Assembly (NCBI RefSeq): GCF_035325185.1
Contig: NZ_DAOLAJ010000005.1
Location: 5,166 to 69,165, forward strand
Source: Enterovirga sp.
GTDB lineage: Bacteria; Pseudomonadota; Alphaproteobacteria; Rhizobiales; Beijerinckiaceae
Length of the DNA: 64,000 nt
Direction of reading: 5' to 3'
Shown: positions 1,139 to 15,470 of the stretch, piece by piece
How the letters are laid out: each line of letters starts with the position of its first letter
How positions within the stretch are numbered: position 1 is the first letter of the stretch
Notes under the pieces: generated by a model
Told to the model about the DNA's origin: nothing
The model's input: only the letters and a program-made list of their open reading frames with translations
Database searches by the model: none
Program-made: the position numbers and the translations under genes

Positions 1139-2914
1139 ATGACCGCAGGCATGTACGAGATCATGATCCCCGCCGTGATCGGCCTCCTGGCGATCGTCGG
1201 CATCGGCGTCGTCCTCGCGACGCTCTATACGCGCTCGACGCGCGATCAGGCCTATGTCCGTACCGGGCTCGGCGGCCAGAAGGTCGTGCTGGACGGCGGC
1301 TCGGTGGTGCTGCCGATCTTCCACTCGATCGCCCGCGTGAACCTCAAGACGCTGCGCCTCGAAGTGCGGCGCGGCGAGGGCGACGCCCTCATCACCAAGG
1401 ACCGCATGCGCGTCGATATCGGGGCGGAATTCTACGTGCGCGTAAAACCCGACGGCTCCTCGATCGCCCTCGCCGCCCAGACGCTCGGCGACCGCACCAA
1501 CAATGCCGAGGAGCTGCGCCTTCTCATCGAGGCGAAATTCGTCGACGGCCTGCGCTCGGTCGCCGCCACCATGAATCTCGACGAGCTGCAGGAACAGCGC
1601 GCCGATTTCGTGAAGGCGGTGCAGGAGGCGGTGGGCGCGGACCTCCAGTCGAACGGCCTCGAGCTGGAATCGGTCTCGCTGACGCGGCTCGACCAGACCG
1701 ACATCAAGCATTTCAACGCCAACAACTTCTTCGACGCCCAGGGCCTCGCGACGCTGACCCGCATCACCGAAACCCGCAAGAAGGAGCGCAACGAGATCGT
1801 CCGCGACACCGAGGTCGCCATCGCCCAGAAGGACCTCGATGCGAGGAAGCAGACCCTCGCCATCGAGCGCAACCAGCGCGAATCCGAGCTGAACCAGGAG
1901 CGCGACATCGCCAATATCGCGGCCGCGACGCGCGCGGAGACGGCGCGGCAGGAACAGGCCGCCCAACTCGCCGAGTCGGAAGCGCGGATCGACCGCGAGC
2001 GCGCCGTCGCCGAGCGCGAGGCGACGGCCAAGCAGGCCCGCGAATCGGCCAATATCGCCTCGACCCTCGCCGTGCAGCAGCGCGACACCGAGGCCAAGCG
2101 CGACCTCCAGCTCATCGCCCAGGACAGCGCCATCGCGGTCGCCGACCGCTCGCGCCAGGAATCGGAGGCCCGCGCGGCGGCCGAACAGGCCCGCGCCGTC
2201 GCCATCGCGGCGACCGAGAAGGTCGAGACGGCGAAATCCGTCGAGATCGCCGAGCGCGAGCGCCAGATCGCGATCATCGCGGCCAAGAAGCACGCCGAGA
2301 CCGAGGCGACCTCCGTCACCGTCTCGGCCGATGCCGAGAAGCAGGCGGCGCATGACCGGGCCGAGGCGAGGCTCACCCTCGCGCGCGCCGACGCGGATGC
2401 CGCCACGATCGCCGCCAAGGGCATCGTCGATACCGGCAAGGCCAAGGCGGAGGCCGAGGCGCTGCTCATCGAGGCCAAGAACCGGATCTCGCGCGAGATC
2501 ATCGAATTCGAGATCCTGCGCGAGCGCATCCGGATCGTCCCGCTCGCGCTGGCCGAGATCGTCAAGCCGGCCGAGAAGATCTCCGACATCCGCATCTTCG
2601 ACACGGGCGGCATGCTCGGCCGGGGCGGCGAGGGCAACGGCTCGGGCGGCAGCGGGGGAGTCGGCATGGGCGAGGGCCTCGCCGGCCAGCTTCTCGCCTA
2701 CAACGCGCAGAGCCCTGTCCTCGCGGAGCTGCTCAAGGCGGCCGGCTTCACGGGACCCGACGCGGTGGCGGCGCTCATGCGCGAGGCCGCCGGCGGACAG
2801 CCGGCGCCCGCCCGGGGGAAGGGAGCGTCCGATGGAGCCGCCGTGGGAGCGAGCTTCGCTCCGGCCGCCTCGTTCAGGCCATCCTCGCCGGGGACGGCGA
2901 CGGACAAGGCCTGA
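1139..2914 (+). CDS. Flotillin/SPFH (YqiK-like) protein
   Basis: N-terminal TM, SPFH domain (ALITKDRMRVDIGAEFYVRV, NGLELESVSLT), long AE-rich coiled coil. Confidence 0.9.
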   Translation: MTAGMYEIMIPAVIGLLAIVGIGVVLATLYTRSTRDQAYVRTGLGGQKVVLDGGSVVLPIFHSIARVNLKTLRLEVRRGEGDALITKDRMRVDIGAEFYVRVKPDGSSIALAAQTLGDRTNNAEELRLLIEAKFVDGLRSVAATMNLDELQEQRADFVKAVQEAVGADLQSNGLELESVSLTRLDQTDIKHFNANNFFDAQGLATLTRITETRKKERNEIVRDTEVAIAQKDLDARKQTLAIERNQRESELNQERDIANIAAATRAETARQEQAAQLAESEARIDRERAVAEREATAKQARESANIASTLAVQQRDTEAKRDLQLIAQDSAIAVADRSRQESEARAAAEQARAVAIAATEKVETAKSVEIAERERQIAIIAAKKHAETEATSVTVSADAEKQAAHDRAEARLTLARADADAATIAAKGIVDTGKAKAEAEALLIEAKNRISREIIEFEILRERIRIVPLALAEIVKPAEKISDIRIFDTGGMLGRGGEGNGSGGSGGVGMGEGLAGQLLAYNAQSPVLAELLKAAGFTGPDAVAALMREAAGGQPAPARGKGASDGAAVGASFAPAASFRPSSPGTATDKA

Positions 2915-11499: not shown

Positions 11500-12039
11500 T
11501 CAGGCGCGGAGCCTGGCTCCGTAGCGCTCATGAGCCTTCATGATCATCCCTTCCGCCTCGGCGGCGTCGCCCCAGCGCAGGATGCGGACCCATTTCCCCT
11601 CTTCGAGGTCTTTGTAATGGGTGAAGAAATGCTCGATCTGCTTCAGCGTGATCTCGGGCAGGTCCCGCGCCTGCGCGACGGCGTCGTAGCGGCGTGTCAG
11701 CCGGCGCGCCGGAACCGCGATGATCTTCTCGTCCGGCCCCGCCTCGTCCTGCATGACGAGGACGCCGACGGGACGGACCGCGATGACGGCCCCCGGGACC
11801 AGGGCACGGCTGTTGGCGACGAGGACGTCGCAAGGGTCTCCGTCCTCGGAGAGCGTGCGCGGCATGAATCCGTAATTGCCCGGATAGCGCATCGGCGTGT
11901 GGAGGAAGCGGTCGACGACGAGTGCGCCCGACGCCTTGTCGAATTCGTACTTGATCGGCTCCCCGCCGATGGGCACCTCGATGACGACGTTGACTTCCGA
12001 GGGAGCCTTCGCGCCGAGGGACAACGCTTCGAGGTTCAT
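11500..12039 (-). CDS. ppa: Family I inorganic pyrophosphatase
   Basis: [47 protein letters not shown]; GCAGGAG RBS upstream. Confidence 0.96.
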
Positions 12040-12104
12040 CACCCGATCTCCTGCTTCGGCCGATCGCCCACGCACAGGAATCCTGCACGCGGAGCGCGGC
12101 GTCC

Positions 12105-12151
12105 GTAGGAGTCATCAGCCGGAACGGCGGTTTCGGGGGAACCCCATCCCC
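12105..12151 (-). ncRNA. Fluoride riboswitch (crcB motif) leading ppa
   Basis: Minus strand reads GGGGAUGGGGUUCCCCCGAAACCGCCGUUCCGGCUGAUGACUCCUAC. P1 GGGGA/UCCCC, P2 GCC/GGC, pseudoknot GGGGU/ACUCC, conserved GAUG and GCUGAUGAC. Confidence 0.9.
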
Positions 12152-12161
12152 ATCACCCCGA

Positions 12162-12222: not shown

Positions 12223-12250
12223 TTGCGCTCCCGGCCTGCCGGCCTACATT
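12223..12250 (+). promoter_or_regulatory. sigma70-type promoter for the MutS-like operon leader
   Basis: TTGCGC-N16-TACATT, ending 6 nt before the first G of the aptamer. Confidence 0.6.
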
Positions 12251-12256
12251 CGGGGC

Positions 12257-12301
12257 GGGGATGGAGTCCCCCGATACGCCCCGTCCGCTGATGACTCCTG
12301 C
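12257..12301 (+). ncRNA. Fluoride riboswitch (crcB motif) leading the MutS-like pair
   Basis: GGGGAUGGAGUCCCCCGAUACGCCCCGUCCGCUGAUGACUCCUGC. P1 GGGGA/UCCCC, pseudoknot GGAGU/ACUCC, GCUGAUGAC core; P2 reduced to about 2 bp. Confidence 0.82.
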
Positions 12302-12345
12302 CTTTCCATTCGTGCGCCGCCCCACGGCGCCGAGGCAGGAGCGTC

Positions 12346-13968
12346 ATGAGGACCGACCTTTCCGATCCCCGTCCCCTCGCGGCCGAGCCCAGGCTCGATC
12401 CGGCCGATGATCGCGGCCTCTCTCTGGGCCCCGCGTTCCGCAGCGTCCTGTTCCCGCCGGGCCGCGAGCCCGCGCAGCCGGACGAGCGCGAGGCGCCCGC
12501 CTGCTTCGCGGACCTGAACCTCGACAAGGTGGTCTCGGCCCTGGCGGCCGGGCGCGACGAGGAGGTCCTGCGCCCGATCTTCCATACGCCCCGGCGGAGC
12601 GAGGAGATCGTCCGCTACCGGCAAGCCGTCTTCGGAGATCTCGAGCGGCCGGAGGTGTTTCGGGTCTTCCCGCCCTTCTGCGAGGCGATGCGCGCGGTCC
12701 GGGCGGATCTCGCCCAGGCCGGGAAGATCACCTGGCTCTGCCACAGGCACATGGTGATGCTGCGCGCGGCCGCGACCTATTGCAGGGCGCTCGGGGACCT
12801 GCTGGCCGGGCTCCGCCCGCTTCGCCTGCGTTCCGAAGGACTCGCGGGCTTCACCGCCTATCTGGGCGAATTCGCCACGTCCCCGGGCTTCCGGAACTTC
12901 TCGGCGGAGACGGCATCTCTCTGCCAGAAGCTGTTCGGCCTCGATTACGGCATGCTTTTCCGCGGCGACAAGGTCACGGTGCGCAAATATGCGGGCGAGC
13001 CGGATTACACCGTGTCGATCCGCGAGAGATTCGCGAGGTTCAGGGAGGCCGAGATCGAGCCCGCCTCCCCGAAGACGCGCAAGGGCGAGGCCGCGCTCAA
13101 CCACATCGAGGAGGGCATTCTCGAATTCGTGGGCCGGCTGTTTCCCGAGGAGTTCCGGCAGCTCGCGGATTACGCCCGGCGCCGCGGCTCCTTCATCGAC
13201 GAGACCGTGGCGCGGCTCGACCGGGAGATCGGCTTCTTCGTCGCCTATCTCGACTTCATCGCGCCTCTCCGGCAGGCCGGCCTGCCCTTCTGCCATCCCG
13301 AGGTCTCGACCTCGTGCAAGGAGACGGAGGTGTCCCGCGGCTTCGACCTCGCCCTGGCCGCGAAGCTCGTCGGCGAGAGGGCGCCGGTCGTCTGCAACGA
13401 TTTTCGCCTGTCGGGGCCCGAGAGGATGATCGTCGTGTCCGGCCCCAACCAGGGCGGCAAGACCACCTTCGCGCGCATGTTCGGCCAGTTGCACGTCCTG
13501 GCCGGGCTCGGCTGCCCCGTCCCCGGACGATCCGCCCGCCTCTTCCTCCCGGATGCGGTCTTCACGCATTTCGAGCGCGAAGAGGACATCGCGAACCTGC
13601 GCGGCAAGCTCGAGGACGAGCTGGTTCGCCTCCACGAGAGCTGCGAGGCGATGACGGCGAACAGCGTCGTCATCCTCAACGAGATCTTCAACTCGACGAG
13701 CCTCGACGACCAGGTCCTCCTCAGCCGGAAGATCCTCGACCGCATCCTCGCGGCCGATGCGATCGGCGTCTGCGTGACCTTCATCGACGCGCTCTCCACG
13801 CTGAGCGGGAAGACCGTCAGCATGGTCGCCGCGGTGCACCCCGAGGATCCCGCGCGCCGGACCTTCGAGCTGGTGCGCCGGCCCGCCGACGGGCTCGCCT
13901 ATGCGCTGTCGCTCGCGCAGGCGCACGGCGTCACCTACGAGCGCCTGCGCGAGAGGGTCCGGCCATGA
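12346..13968 (+). CDS. MutS-related ATPase (C-terminal domain V type; no recognisable mismatch-binding or Smr domain)
   Basis: VCNDFRLS..ERMIVVSGPNQGGKTT (Walker A), FTHFERE, VILNEIFNST, C-terminal YALSLA..HG helix-turn-helix. Confidence 0.85.
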   Translation: MRTDLSDPRPLAAEPRLDPADDRGLSLGPAFRSVLFPPGREPAQPDEREAPACFADLNLDKVVSALAAGRDEEVLRPIFHTPRRSEEIVRYRQAVFGDLERPEVFRVFPPFCEAMRAVRADLAQAGKITWLCHRHMVMLRAAATYCRALGDLLAGLRPLRLRSEGLAGFTAYLGEFATSPGFRNFSAETASLCQKLFGLDYGMLFRGDKVTVRKYAGEPDYTVSIRERFARFREAEIEPASPKTRKGEAALNHIEEGILEFVGRLFPEEFRQLADYARRRGSFIDETVARLDREIGFFVAYLDFIAPLRQAGLPFCHPEVSTSCKETEVSRGFDLALAAKLVGERAPVVCNDFRLSGPERMIVVSGPNQGGKTTFARMFGQLHVLAGLGCPVPGRSARLFLPDAVFTHFEREEDIANLRGKLEDELVRLHESCEAMTANSVVILNEIFNSTSLDDQVLLSRKILDRILAADAIGVCVTFIDALSTLSGKTVSMVAAVHPEDPARRTFELVRRPADGLAYALSLAQAHGVTYERLRERVRP

Positions 13969-15470
13969 AGACCTTCCTCATGCATCCCGGCCGCGACTTC
14001 GAAACGGAGCCGGCCTCGACGGCCTCGAAAGAGTCCCTCCCCTTCGCCCAGGATATCGAGCTGGACGTCCTCCTGGACGCCGCGGCTTCCGGCGACCGCT
14101 TCCTGCGGGAGATCATGTCGGCGGCCTGCGCCCGCGCCTGGACCAACGACATCGCCACGATCCGCTATCGCCAGGAGATCCTGAAGGATTGCCTCGCCAA
14201 TCCGGGCGTCGTCCGGGGCCTCTACGCCCTCGCCCTCGAGCCGTTCAGCCGCGAGCATAGCTGGAATTTCAGCCTCTACGGCCGCGATGCCGCCGTGATG
14301 GTCTCCAGCGGCGTGCGGACGCTCCAGGTCAGCCTCGACGTCCTCGAACGGCTCCGCAATCTCTGCCGCGACAACGCGGACCGCTTCGCCTCGCCCGGCT
14401 TCCGCCAGTTCTTCGCGACGCTCGAACGGAACCTCGACGACGCCTATCTCGCCGCCGCGCGGACCGATCTCGACACCCTGACCTTCCGCCACGGCCTTCT
14501 GCTCAGCGCCCGGCTCGGGGAAGGCGGCAAGGGCGTCGGGACGATGCTGCGCAAGCCCCAGAAGCGGGACCTGAACTGGATCGACCGGCTCCTCACGCCC
14601 GGGGCGAGGAGCTTCACCTTGCAGCTCCATCCCCGCGACGAGGCCGGGGCGCAGGCCTTCGCGGAGCTGGAAGGCCGGGGCCTCGTGCTCATCTGCGACG
14701 CGGTCTACGAATCCGCCGAGCACGTCCTCGGCTTCCTGAAGGCGCTGCGGGCGGAACTCGCCTTCTATCTCGGCGGCCTCAACCTGAAGGAAAGCCTCGA
14801 CCGGATCGGCGAGACGGTCGCCTTTCCCGATCCGCAGGCCGAGCGCGGCCGCTTCCACTGCCGGAACCTGCGCGACGCATGCCTCGCCCTGACGATGGAG
14901 AAGCCGGTCGTCGGAAACGACGTCGCCGCGGACGGCAGGCCGCTCGTGATCGTGACCGGGGCCAATCGCGGCGGCAAGTCGACCTTCCTGCGGAGCGTGG
15001 GCCTCGCCCATCTGATGATGCAATGCGGCCTGTTCGTCACGGCCGAGTCCTTCTCGGCCTCGCTGCGCTCCGGGCTCTTCACGCATTGCAAGCGGGAGGA
15101 GGACCGCAGCATGCGCAGCGGAAAATTCGACGAGGAACTGGTCCGCATGAGCGCGATCGCGGACGAGATCCGCGAGGGGGCGCTCGTCCTCTTCAACGAA
15201 TCCTTCGCCGCCACCCACGAGCGGGAGGGATCGGAAATCGCCCGGCAGATCGTCTCGGCCCTGCTGGAGCGGAACGTCACGGTCTTCTTCGTCTCGCACA
15301 TGCACGCCTTCGCCCGCTCCTTCCTGGAGGACGGGCGAACCCTGTTCCTGCGCGCCGAGAGAGGGGAGGAAGGCCGCAGGACCTTCCGTCTCCGGGAAGG
15401 CGCGCCCGAGGCGAAAAGCTTCGGCGCCGATCTCTACCGGCGCATTTTCGAGCAGCCCGCTGCCATCTGA
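13965..15470 (+). CDS. Second MutS-related ATPase, translationally coupled to the first
   Basis: ATGA overlap. VVGNDV..DGRPLVIVTGANRGGKST, GLFVTAESF, LFNESFAAT, VSH. Confidence 0.85.
   Translation: MKTFLMHPGRDFETEPASTASKESLPFAQDIELDVLLDAAASGDRFLREIMSAACARAWTNDIATIRYRQEILKDCLANPGVVRGLYALALEPFSREHSWNFSLYGRDAAVMVSSGVRTLQVSLDVLERLRNLCRDNADRFASPGFRQFFATLERNLDDAYLAAARTDLDTLTFRHGLLLSARLGEGGKGVGTMLRKPQKRDLNWIDRLLTPGARSFTLQLHPRDEAGAQAFAELEGRGLVLICDAVYESAEHVLGFLKALRAELAFYLGGLNLKESLDRIGETVAFPDPQAERGRFHCRNLRDACLALTMEKPVVGNDVAADGRPLVIVTGANRGGKSTFLRSVGLAHLMMQCGLFVTAESFSASLRSGLFTHCKREEDRSMRSGKFDEELVRMSAIADEIREGALVLFNESFAATHEREGSEIARQIVSALLERNVTVFFVSHMHAFARSFLEDGRTLFLRAERGEEGRRTFRLREGAPEAKSFGADLYRRIFEQPAAI

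What the first reader, a model, noticed from the sequence alone, without database searches (positions are those of the whole stretch)
12257..15470. Fluoride-controlled heteromeric pair of MutS-like ATPases: candidate undescribed system
Two divergent paralogs (540 and 501 aa) are coupled by an ATGA overlap. Each has a helical N-terminal region and a MutS domain V ATPase, with no recognisable mismatch-recognition or Smr nuclease domain. The riboswitch ties them to fluoride stress. As I recall, MutS-annotated genes occur in published crcB-riboswitch gene contexts, but I know of no function for them. Hypothesis (inference): a heterodimeric clamp/ATPase that rescues complexes trapped by metal-fluoride phosphate mimics, such as stalled ribosomes by analogy to MutS2, or nucleotide-processing enzymes.
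Basis: partly seen in the sequence, partly recalled or inferred. Interest (0 to 1): 0.88.

Follow-up and report, generated by a model that had tools for sequence, protein, structure and literature searches.

The report
Fluoride-switched MutS4A/MutS4B ATPase pair
Two overlapping MutS-like ATPase genes behind a fluoride-sensing RNA switch are real, but they belong to the already named MutS4A/MutS4B pair, whose link to this switch was published in 2010 and whose biochemical job is still unknown.

Summary
ORF A (12346-13968, 540 aa) and ORF B (13965-15470, 501 aa) overlap by ATGA. Each has only a MutS domain V hit, and each folds like the MutS2 core (lever, small clamp, ATPase). A fluoride riboswitch (12248-12307) lies 38 nt upstream, and its 3' strand can pair with the ribosome-binding site.

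The system is not undescribed. The pair meets the published definition of MutS4A/MutS4B (Lin, Nei and Ma 2007), and mutS genes behind the crcB motif were reported by Weinberg et al. 2010. This scan has also reached the same conclusion on at least eight other genomes.

In 80 homologous loci from many phyla:
- B follows A in 78.
- The 4-nt overlap is kept in 74 of 77.
- A same-strand fluoride riboswitch lies upstream in 55.
- A further 13 sit in crcB/enolase-type clusters.

Family features seen here:
- The Walker B Asp is Asn in both subunits.
- The H-loop His is Phe in A only.
- Only B has a basic clamp tip.

My reading is a fluoride-induced, asymmetric heterodimeric clamp, probably on nucleic acid and not mismatch repair. 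The substrate is unknown.

The parts
12248..12307 (+). Fluoride riboswitch aptamer (crcB motif, RF01734) in the 5' leader of the pair
   Evidence: Rfam cmscan gives 35.8 bits (gathering score 34), E 3.2e-6, full model 1-64. It aligns with the aptamers at the same position in L004-L007.
12288..12348 (+). Expression platform. The aptamer 3' strand (CUGAUGACUCCUGCC, 12288-12302) is complementary to the ribosome-binding site and start codon (GGCAGGAGCGUCAUG, 12334-12348).
   Evidence: The minimum-free-energy fold of 12245-12360 pairs these segments: -60.7 kcal/mol, z = -4.65 against shuffles. The reading as a translational ON switch is an inference.
12346..13968 (+). MutS4A-type subunit (540 aa): core/lever helices, small neutral clamp tip, ATPase with Walker A GPNQGGKTT, Walker B Asn445-Glu446, and Phe479 in place of the H-loop His
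13965..13968 (+). ATGA stop/start overlap (translational coupling)
   Evidence: The same 4-nt overlap (ATGA or GTGA) is found in 74 of 77 homologous loci.
13965..15470 (+). MutS4B-type subunit (501 aa): core/lever helices, basic clamp tip, ATPase with Walker A GANRGGKST, Walker B Asn411-Glu412, and the H-loop His445 retained
12099..12160 (-). Second, divergent fluoride riboswitch in the same intergenic region
   Evidence: Rfam 57.8 bits, E 2e-13. Its unliganded fold also pairs CUCCU with the AGGAG ribosome-binding site.
11500..12039 (-). Riboswitch-controlled extra copy of family I inorganic pyrophosphatase (ppa)
   Evidence: Pfam Pyrophosphatase 1.5e-55 and NCBIfam inorganic diphosphatase 263 bits against a cut-off of 200. 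A second ppa lies on contig C100.

Best explanation
The two genes are a MutS4A/MutS4B pair, a widespread, horizontally spread and always-coupled pair of short MutS paralogs. Here they are placed under a translational fluoride ON-riboswitch.

Shown:
- With no fluoride, the aptamer's 3' CUCCUGCC strand can pair with the ribosome-binding site and start codon. The fluoride-bound pseudoknot would free them.
- The ATGA overlap couples translation of B to A.
- Each protein folds as MutS core/lever plus a small clamp plus an ABC-type ATPase. Neither has a mismatch-binding domain, connector, Smr or KOW domain.

Inferred:
- The proteins form a 1:1 asymmetric heterodimer, like MSH2-MSH6. One nucleotide site is likely degenerate, because A has Phe where MutS has the H-loop His. 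The other site is competent, because B keeps the His.
- Both Walker B motifs read Asn-Glu instead of Asp-Glu. In E. coli MutS the D693N change weakens Mg2+ binding and slows switching. The pair is therefore probably a slow ATP switch that depends little on Mg2+. This could also make it less prone to metal-fluoride trapping, but that last point is speculative.
- Only B's clamp tip is conserved as basic, so I think the dimer clamps a polyanion. DNA seems most likely (stalled or branched replication or recombination intermediates that arise when fluoride and accumulated pyrophosphate poison Mg-dependent nucleotide enzymes).
- It acts independently of MutL and is not mismatch repair.

My confidence is about 0.9 for the identity and fluoride control, about 0.7 for the heterodimer, and about 0.35 for DNA as the substrate.
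For: - Gene structure and domains.
- Riboswitch. Unliganded fold sequestering the ribosome-binding site.
- Published MutS4 definition, including the stop/start overlap.
- Conservation across 80 loci from more than 10 phyla: B follows A in 78 of 80, and the 4-nt overlap is kept in 74 of 77.
- Fluoride link: an aptamer lies within 450 nt upstream in 41 loci and 0.5-2.5 kb upstream in co-directional operons in 14 more. Thirteen of the 23 loci without an aptamer still sit in crcB/enolase/DUF190/Usp/dynamin clusters.
- Phylogeny: A and B are reciprocally monophyletic (98/96 and 100/95). The window's A and B have the same nearest neighbours.
- Structure: AF2 models have pLDDT 87 and 80. Foldseek aligns both full length to the Thermus MutS2 core, MutS and MutSbeta.
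- Motifs: Asn-Glu Walker B is invariant in A and at least 90% in B. Phe479 is invariant in A and His445 is invariant in B.
- D693N phenotype in E. coli MutS: PMC2857095.
- Clamp tip charge: +5.5 +/- 1.6 for B against -0.2 +/- 3.2 for A.
- The genome already has a canonical 902-aa MutS1.
- Precedent for a DNA-level effect: a mycobacterial MutS4 operon raised recombinant recovery in M. smegmatis (PMC5742357).
Against: - There are no experimental data for this locus, and induction by fluoride is inferred.
- The aptamer only just passes Rfam's threshold (35.8 against 34 bits).
- Heterodimer formation was not modelled, because no multimer tool was available.
- The DNA substrate rests on homology, one basic tip, and a single small heterologous experiment: 55 against 22 colonies, with 75% against 31% confirmed recombinants.
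- A basic tip would equally suit rRNA.
- About 10 of 80 loci show no fluoride context within 4 kb.
- The link between Walker B Asn and fluoride resistance is speculation.
Confidence: 0.6

Rival explanations
1. Translation rescue. The heterodimer clamps ribosomes or translational GTPases stalled by GDP-metal-fluoride complexes and splits or releases them, as B. subtilis MutS2 splits collided ribosomes.
For: Both subunits fold like the MutS2 core, with top Foldseek hits 7vuf and 7qv3. The architecture, with no domain I or II, matches the MutS2 core. A basic tip could contact rRNA. A dynamin-family GTPase recurs in the same operons in 11 of 80 loci, which shows that nucleotide-switch proteins are part of this regulon.
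Against: [quoted passage not shown] TIGR01069 scores are 38-67 bits against a cut-off of 400. No ribosome-associated gene recurs in the neighbourhoods.
Confidence: 0.15
2. Enzyme reactivase. The ATPase pair pries tightly bound Mg-fluoride-(phosphate) complexes out of poisoned enzymes such as enolase or pyrophosphatase. This would be analogous to MutS-like ATPases that reactivate a B12 enzyme.
For: NCBIfam has a MutS-like model named 'lysine 5,6-aminomutase reactivase ATPase KamC', about 500 aa long, and it is B's best NCBIfam hit (67.9 bits). Enolase lies in the same operon or cluster in 11 of 80 loci. Here a riboswitch-controlled ppa is the divergent neighbour.
Against: The KamC score is far below its cut-off of 300, and the match covers only the ATPase domain. 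A family I ppa is adjacent in only 3 of 80 loci. Enolase is absent from most loci, so no single client enzyme travels with the pair. I found no paper on KamC in the library, so the analogy rests on a model name.
Confidence: 0.12
3. Ordinary mismatch repair or mutation avoidance by a spare MutS.
For: Database names call it 'DNA mismatch repair protein MutS'. It has a MutS_V domain.
Against: There is no domain I or II. Scores are 57-70 bits against cut-offs of 480-642 for the MutS1 models. Walker B Asn corresponds to a repair-defective E. coli mutant. A full MutS1 is present elsewhere in the genome. According to Lin 2007, MutS4 occurs in lineages without MutS1 or MutL (Thermoplasma, Ferroplasma; also mycobacteria per Kim 2017).
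Confidence: 0.03
4. The upstream aptamer is a decayed or non-functional riboswitch, and the pair is expressed independently of fluoride in this genome.
For: The Rfam score is marginal at 35.8 bits. The equivalent aptamers in L004, L006 and L007 fall below Rfam's threshold.
Against: All invariant aptamer positions are kept (alignment A2). The position is conserved in orthologous loci. The complementarity between the aptamer's 3' strand and the ribosome-binding site is intact.
Confidence: 0.05

Closest known systems
MutS4A/MutS4B subfamily (Lin, Nei and Ma 2007, Nucleic Acids Res 35:7591, PMC2190696; mycobacterial MutS4 operon, Kim et al. 2017, PMC5742357)
   Same: Only the MutS ATPase domain is recognisable by sequence. 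The two paralogs are adjacent, and the stop of A overlaps the start of B. A and B form separate clades. The distribution is patchy and shaped by horizontal transfer, and it includes Thermoanaerobacter, Chloroflexi and archaea. The function is unknown.
   Different: Nothing structural differs. Neither of those two papers mentions the fluoride riboswitch (zero occurrences in Kim 2017). I could not place the window's proteins in a tree with the named reference sequences.
Fluoride riboswitch (crcB motif, RF01734) regulon (Weinberg et al. 2010, PMC2864571; Baker et al. 2012, Science 335:233, cited from memory because the paper is not held)
   Same: The aptamer sits in the 5' leader. mutS is listed among crcB-motif genes. 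Companion genes here and in related loci are the classic set: ppa, enolase, crcB, Na+/H+ antiporter, Usp, MFS and DUF190.
   Different: Those papers established the exporters (CrcB, EriC-F). No role has been assigned to the MutS-like genes.
MutS2 / RqcU (Thermus thermophilus MutS2 core 7vuf; B. subtilis MutS2-disome 7qv3)
   Same: It has the same core/lever, clamp and ATPase architecture without domains I and II, and gives the best structural matches.
   Different: MutS2 is a homodimer with KOW and Smr domains and an Asp-Glu Walker B. This pair is a heterodimer of two paralogs, lacks both domains, and has Asn-Glu.
MSH2-MSH6 / MSH2-MSH3 and heterodimeric ABC ATPases with one degenerate site
   Same: They have two diverged paralogous subunits with unequal nucleotide sites.
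   Different: The eukaryotic proteins keep the mismatch and connector domains and work with MutL homologs.

Membership tests
MutS4A/MutS4B | Only the MutSac (domain V) region is recognisable; no MutS-I, MutS-II or Smr | tested here: met
   Pfam finds MutS_V only in both proteins.
MutS4A/MutS4B | [quoted passage not shown] | tested here: met
   ATGA at 13965-13968. The same overlap is found in 74 of 77 homologous loci.
MutS4A/MutS4B | A-type and B-type proteins form two separate clades | tested here: met
   Maximum-likelihood tree of 35 A, 35 B and the genome's own MutS1: A 98/96, B 100/95.
MutS4A/MutS4B | Patchy distribution across distant bacteria and archaea, consistent with horizontal transfer | tested here: met
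   0 of 40 close relatives and 4 of 300 genomes of the class carry it. Loci come from more than 10 phyla, including Thermoanaerobacter, Chloroflexota and an archaeon. Identity of 75-83% across phyla.
MutS4A/MutS4B | Clusters with the named reference MutS4 sequences (T. tengcongensis, R. baltica, C. aurantiacus, T. volcanium) | not tested
   Named reference sequences could not be fetched. A Thermoanaerobacter locus (L021) is in the family.
Fluoride riboswitch RF01734 | Covariance-model score at or above the curated gathering score, full-length match | tested here: met
   35.8 bits against 34, model positions 1-64.
Fluoride riboswitch RF01734 | Lies in the 5' leader on the coding strand, with an expression platform that overlaps the aptamer's 3' strand | tested here: met
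   38 nt upstream of the ATG. The unliganded fold pairs 12288-12302 with 12334-12348.
Fluoride riboswitch RF01734 | Binds fluoride and changes expression | not testable with these tools
   Needs in-line probing or a reporter assay.
MutS1 (mismatch repair MutS) | N-terminal mismatch-binding domain I and connector domain II; equivalog score | tested here: not met
   No MutS_I or MutS_II. TIGR01070 scores 57-67 bits against 641.7, and NF003810 scores 64-70 bits against 480.
MutS2 / RqcU | C-terminal Smr nuclease domain (and KOW); equivalog score | tested here: not met
   No Smr or KOW. TIGR01069 scores 38-67 bits against 400.
MutS2 / RqcU | Core/lever, clamp and ATPase fold | tested here: met
   Foldseek top hits include 7vuf, E 4.5e-18, TM (target) 0.58-0.61 for A. 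7vuf, 7qv3 and 9a5o are hits for B.
KamC (lysine 5,6-aminomutase reactivase ATPase, NF052383) | Equivalog score of at least 300 bits | tested here: not met
   35.5 bits (A) and 67.9 bits (B), ATPase region only.
Anti-phage defence systems (PADLOC) | Match to any defence-system protein model | tested here: not met
   No hit for A. One P-loop-only hit at E 0.004 for B.

The most novel reading that the evidence does not exclude
MutS4AB is a dedicated fluoride-damage machine. It would be an ATP-driven clamp whose own active sites (Asn-Glu Walker B, one degenerate site) are built to resist metal-fluoride trapping. It would recognise and release nucleotide-processing complexes frozen on DNA or RNA by MgF3-/AlF4- transition-state mimics. 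That would be a new class of stress repair, in which the lesion is a poisoned enzyme-nucleic acid complex and not a damaged base.
Probability: 0.12. Interest if true: 0.8.

Novelty: new member of a known kind. Interest (0 to 1): 0.38.

Why it matters
Fluoride riboswitches are among the best understood riboswitches, yet a large part of their regulon has no assigned function. The MutS-like pair has been listed there since 2010. The survey here suggests that fluoride control is the normal state of the whole MutS4A/MutS4B family. At least 55 of 80 loci from more than ten phyla have an upstream aptamer, and about 70 of 80 show some fluoride context. That gives a long-orphaned MutS subfamily a physiological setting and gives the fluoride field a concrete target. 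The sequence features found here make simple bench predictions: Asn in both Walker B motifs, loss of the H-loop His in one subunit, and a basic clamp tip on one subunit only. For this particular window the finding is not new. It is one more instance of something this scan has already reported several times.

Tried and rejected
- Baker et al. 2012 could not be read; it is not held. Its gene list is cited from memory only.
- Full-text searches for any functional study of fluoride-linked MutS genes found nothing relevant.
- A search for papers on KamC also found nothing.
- A first regular-expression scan for aptamers missed most of them. My own covariance model, built from alphaproteobacterial aptamers, under-scored those of other phyla. 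I therefore ran Rfam on all 80 loci.
- The 1026-aa protein P0159 looked like a natural A-B fusion. Its A part loses similarity after about residue 420, so I treat it as a probable frameshift or assembly artefact and give it no weight.
- I tested the idea that ppa is a conserved partner and rejected it: it is adjacent in 3 of 80 loci.
- A defence-system reading was rejected.
- A-proximal aptamers score slightly lower than other aptamers in the same loci (median 43.3 against 48.2 bits, p about 0.05, with non-independent data). That is too weak to support a claim.
- The promoter and terminator scan found nothing useful in this 70% GC DNA.
- Heterodimer modelling could not be done, because only single chains can be folded.
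Full report
**What is in the window**

The + strand carries ORF A at 12346-13968 (540 aa) and ORF B at 13965-15470 (501 aa). The stop of A and the start of B share ATGA at 13965-13968. The two proteins are distant paralogs, with 24% identity over about 500 residues and E 2e-19.

Pfam finds only MutS domain V in each, at A 363-491 and B 328-451. NCBIfam gives weak hits far below the cut-offs for MutS1, MutS2 and a model named KamC reactivase ATPase.

Rfam finds two fluoride riboswitches back to back in the 306-nt intergenic region:
- 12248-12307 (+), 35.8 bits against a gathering score of 34, lies 38 nt before the ATG of A.
- 12099-12160 (-), 57.8 bits, lies before a family I inorganic pyrophosphatase gene at 12039-11500.

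Downstream of B, a convergent CoA-transferase gene ends 7 nt away, so the operon is A and B only.

**How the switch is wired**

The minimum-free-energy fold of 12245-12360 pairs the aptamer's 3' strand with the ribosome-binding site and start codon. The paired segments are CUGAUGACUCCUGCC at 12288-12302 and GGCAGGAGCGUCAUG at 12334-12348. The fold has -60.7 kcal/mol and z = -4.65 against shuffles. In the ligand-bound aptamer that 3' strand is used in the pseudoknot. The design therefore reads as a translational ON switch. The ppa leader shows the same CUCCU/AGGAG pairing. This is inference from sequence; induction was not measured.

**The rest of the genome**

- The assembly has a third fluoride riboswitch on another contig. 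It sits in front of a NuoH/Hyf-like membrane-protein operon, and crcB lies 7.4 kb downstream.
- It has a full-length canonical MutS1, an open frame of 902 aa.
- It has a second ppa without a riboswitch.

The locus studied here is therefore an accessory fluoride-response unit. It is not the cell's mismatch repair system and not its housekeeping PPase.

None of 40 relatives from the same genus, family or order has a homolog of A at E 1e-20. Only 4 of 300 evenly drawn, nearly complete genomes of the class have one at E 1e-40. The nearest relatives of both A and B are a Nitrobacteraceae MAG and a Rhizobium plasmid. This fits acquisition by horizontal transfer.

**What the family is**

Lin, Nei and Ma (2007) defined the MutS4 subfamily by these features:
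- Only the MutS ATPase domain is recognisable.
- There are two copies, MutS4A and MutS4B.
- The genes are adjacent, with the stop of 4A overlapping the start of 4B.
- The distribution is patchy, covering Thermoanaerobacter, Chloroflexus, Rhodopirellula, Thermoplasma and Ferroplasma.
- The function is unknown.

Kim et al. (2017) found the same signature in 15 mycobacterial species. They reported that the M. yongonense operon raised recovery of homeologous recombinants in M. smegmatis: 55 against 22 colonies, with 75% against 31% confirmed. This is the only functional claim I found.

Weinberg et al. (2010) listed mutS among the genes behind the crcB motif. As I recall, Baker et al. (2012) did the same, but I could not read that paper.

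The pair here meets every feature of the MutS4 definition that I could test. I could not compare it with the named reference sequences.

**Survey of relatives**

An exhaustive search found about 930 representative clusters (at 50% identity) related to A at E 1e-30 or better. I kept the best 80 loci. They come from Alphaproteobacteria, Chloroflexota, Binatia, Bacillota, Thermodesulfobacteriota, Nitrospirota, Verrucomicrobiota, Actinomycetota, Atribacterota, Thermotogota and an archaeon.

Results for the 80 loci:
- B follows A directly in 78. The other two are truncated or unclear.
- The junction is a 4-nt ATGA or GTGA overlap in 74 of the 77 where it could be read.
- I combined Rfam at its gathering threshold with my own covariance model. 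A same-strand fluoride aptamer lies within 450 nt upstream of A in 41 loci.
- In 14 more the aptamer lies 0.5-2.5 kb upstream, with co-directional genes in between (dynamin-family GTPase, enolase, Na+/H+ exchanger plus Usp).
- Two loci have an aptamer elsewhere in the locus, and 23 have none.
- Of those 23, 13 still lie in same-strand clusters with crcB, enolase, DUF190-CBS, MFS, Usp or the dynamin-like GTPase. Some of these loci are also cut short by contig ends.

Recurrent neighbours are CrcB (14 loci), enolase (11), dynamin-family GTPase (11), MFS (10), DUF190-CBS (10), Na+/H+ exchanger (8), Usp (8) and a histidine phosphatase (7). Family I ppa is a neighbour in only 3 loci, so the divergent ppa here is a local arrangement.

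**Evolution**

On a maximum-likelihood tree of the ATPase regions, A-type and B-type sequences are reciprocally monophyletic (98/96 and 100/95). Both have long stems and short crowns, and phyla are intermingled within each clade. Thermoanaerobacter-type A proteins are 75-83% identical to proteins from Chloroflexi, Proteobacteria, Verrucomicrobia and others. The pair moves as a unit.

**Structure and motifs**

AlphaFold2 with family alignments gave confident models: A has pLDDT 87 and pTM 0.85, and B has pLDDT 80 and pTM 0.81. Foldseek aligns both over their full length to the Thermus MutS2 core region (7vuf), to E. coli MutS and to human MutSbeta. For B it also aligns to B. subtilis MutS2 on the disome. 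The 'helical N-terminal region' is thus the MutS core/lever, with a small beta-hairpin clamp at its tip. Domains I and II are absent.

| Motif | A | B |
|---|---|---|
| Walker A | intact | intact |
| Walker B | Asn-Glu, invariant in 40 sequences | Asn-Glu, at least 90% of 37 sequences |
| H-loop position | invariant Phe479 | invariant His445 |
| Clamp tip net charge | -0.2 +/- 3.2 | +5.5 +/- 1.6 over about 54 residues |

MutS and MutS2 have Asp-Glu at the Walker B position. The matching E. coli mutant, D693N, has lower Mg2+ affinity and slow switching, and it is defective in repair (PMC2857095). The rest of both proteins is acidic.

**Mechanism**

Shown:
- The gene structure, folds, motifs and aptamer.
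- The conserved coupling of the two genes.
- The conserved fluoride context.

Inferred with good support:
- A 1:1 heterodimer with unequal nucleotide sites.
- Production only when fluoride rises.
- Action independent of MutL. The family occurs in MutL-less lineages according to Lin 2007 and Kim 2017.

Inferred with weak support:
- The dimer clamps nucleic acid through B's basic tip.
- The substrate is DNA in a stalled or branched state.

The DNA idea is plausible because fluoride blocks PPase and other Mg-dependent nucleotide enzymes, and because characterised lever-clamp MutS proteins bind DNA or, for MutS2, the ribosome.

Speculative:
- Asn in the Walker B motif makes the ATPase resistant to metal-fluoride trapping.

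**Rivals**

- Ribosome rescue is possible but lacks the Smr and KOW recruitment domains.
- An enzyme-reactivase role rests only on the name of an NCBIfam model that scores far below its cut-off. No client enzyme is consistently linked.
- Plain mismatch repair is very unlikely.
- A dead riboswitch is unlikely, because the conserved positions and the complementarity to the ribosome-binding site are intact.
- No defence-system model matches.

**Novelty and score**

This is a new instance of a known gene pair in a known regulon. The scan's own records show that the same conclusion was reached on at least eight other genomes. I reached it independently before reading them. What remains open, and interesting, is the biochemical role of MutS4AB in fluoride stress. 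The motif and charge asymmetries above give direct tests. I score interest at 0.38.

Noticed in passing
window 11500-12160 (-): A riboswitch-controlled family I inorganic pyrophosphatase is a second copy. The genome has another ppa on contig C100 without a riboswitch, which suggests a fluoride-induced spare enzyme.
   Followed up: partly
L002 (G000:C3:35366-38428), aptamer at 1501-1563 (+): A third fluoride riboswitch in the genome (54.8 bits) precedes a NuoH/HyfC-like membrane protein and further membrane subunits. The only crcB lies 7.4 kb downstream on the same strand, so it may be the last gene of that operon.
   Followed up: partly
L047, L081, L082, L045, L035, L065 and others: A dynamin-family GTPase of about 580 aa (Pfam Dynamin_N) recurs in 11 of 80 MutS4AB loci. 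In several it lies directly between the fluoride aptamer and MutS4A. DUF6062 proteins also recur (5 loci).
   Followed up: partly
L005 (Rhizobium sp. plasmid pSYY.PMSO-B) and L068 (Rhizomicrobium MAG): These are dense multi-riboswitch islands, with four and five fluoride aptamers within about 9.5 kb. The aptamers drive Usp, an ABC ATPase, small unknown proteins and MutS4AB. In L033, L051 and L068 two aptamers sit back to back, as in the window.
   Followed up: partly
L004:2259-3655: A cyclopropane-fatty-acyl-phospholipid synthase (Pfam CMAS, 3e-93) sits directly behind a fluoride aptamer in a Nitrobacter MAG, just upstream of the MutS4AB aptamer.
   Followed up: no
P0159 (1026 aa, from the representative library): This looks like an A-B fusion protein. 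The A part loses similarity after about residue 420 and the B part is intact. It is probably a frameshift at or before the ATGA junction, not a true fusion.
   Followed up: partly
L004:3678-3737, L006:3667-3724, L007:3858-3916; window 12248-12307: The aptamers in front of alphaproteobacterial MutS4A share a shortened second helix (ACGCC...GC). They fall at or below Rfam's gathering score, although every invariant position is kept. Rfam therefore under-counts this subtype.
   Followed up: partly
P0276-P0390: MutS4A proteins that are 75-83% identical occur in Thermoanaerobacteraceae, Moorella, Chloroflexi, Proteobacteria, Poribacteria and Verrucomicrobia. This indicates recent inter-phylum transfer of a strongly constrained protein.
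   Followed up: no
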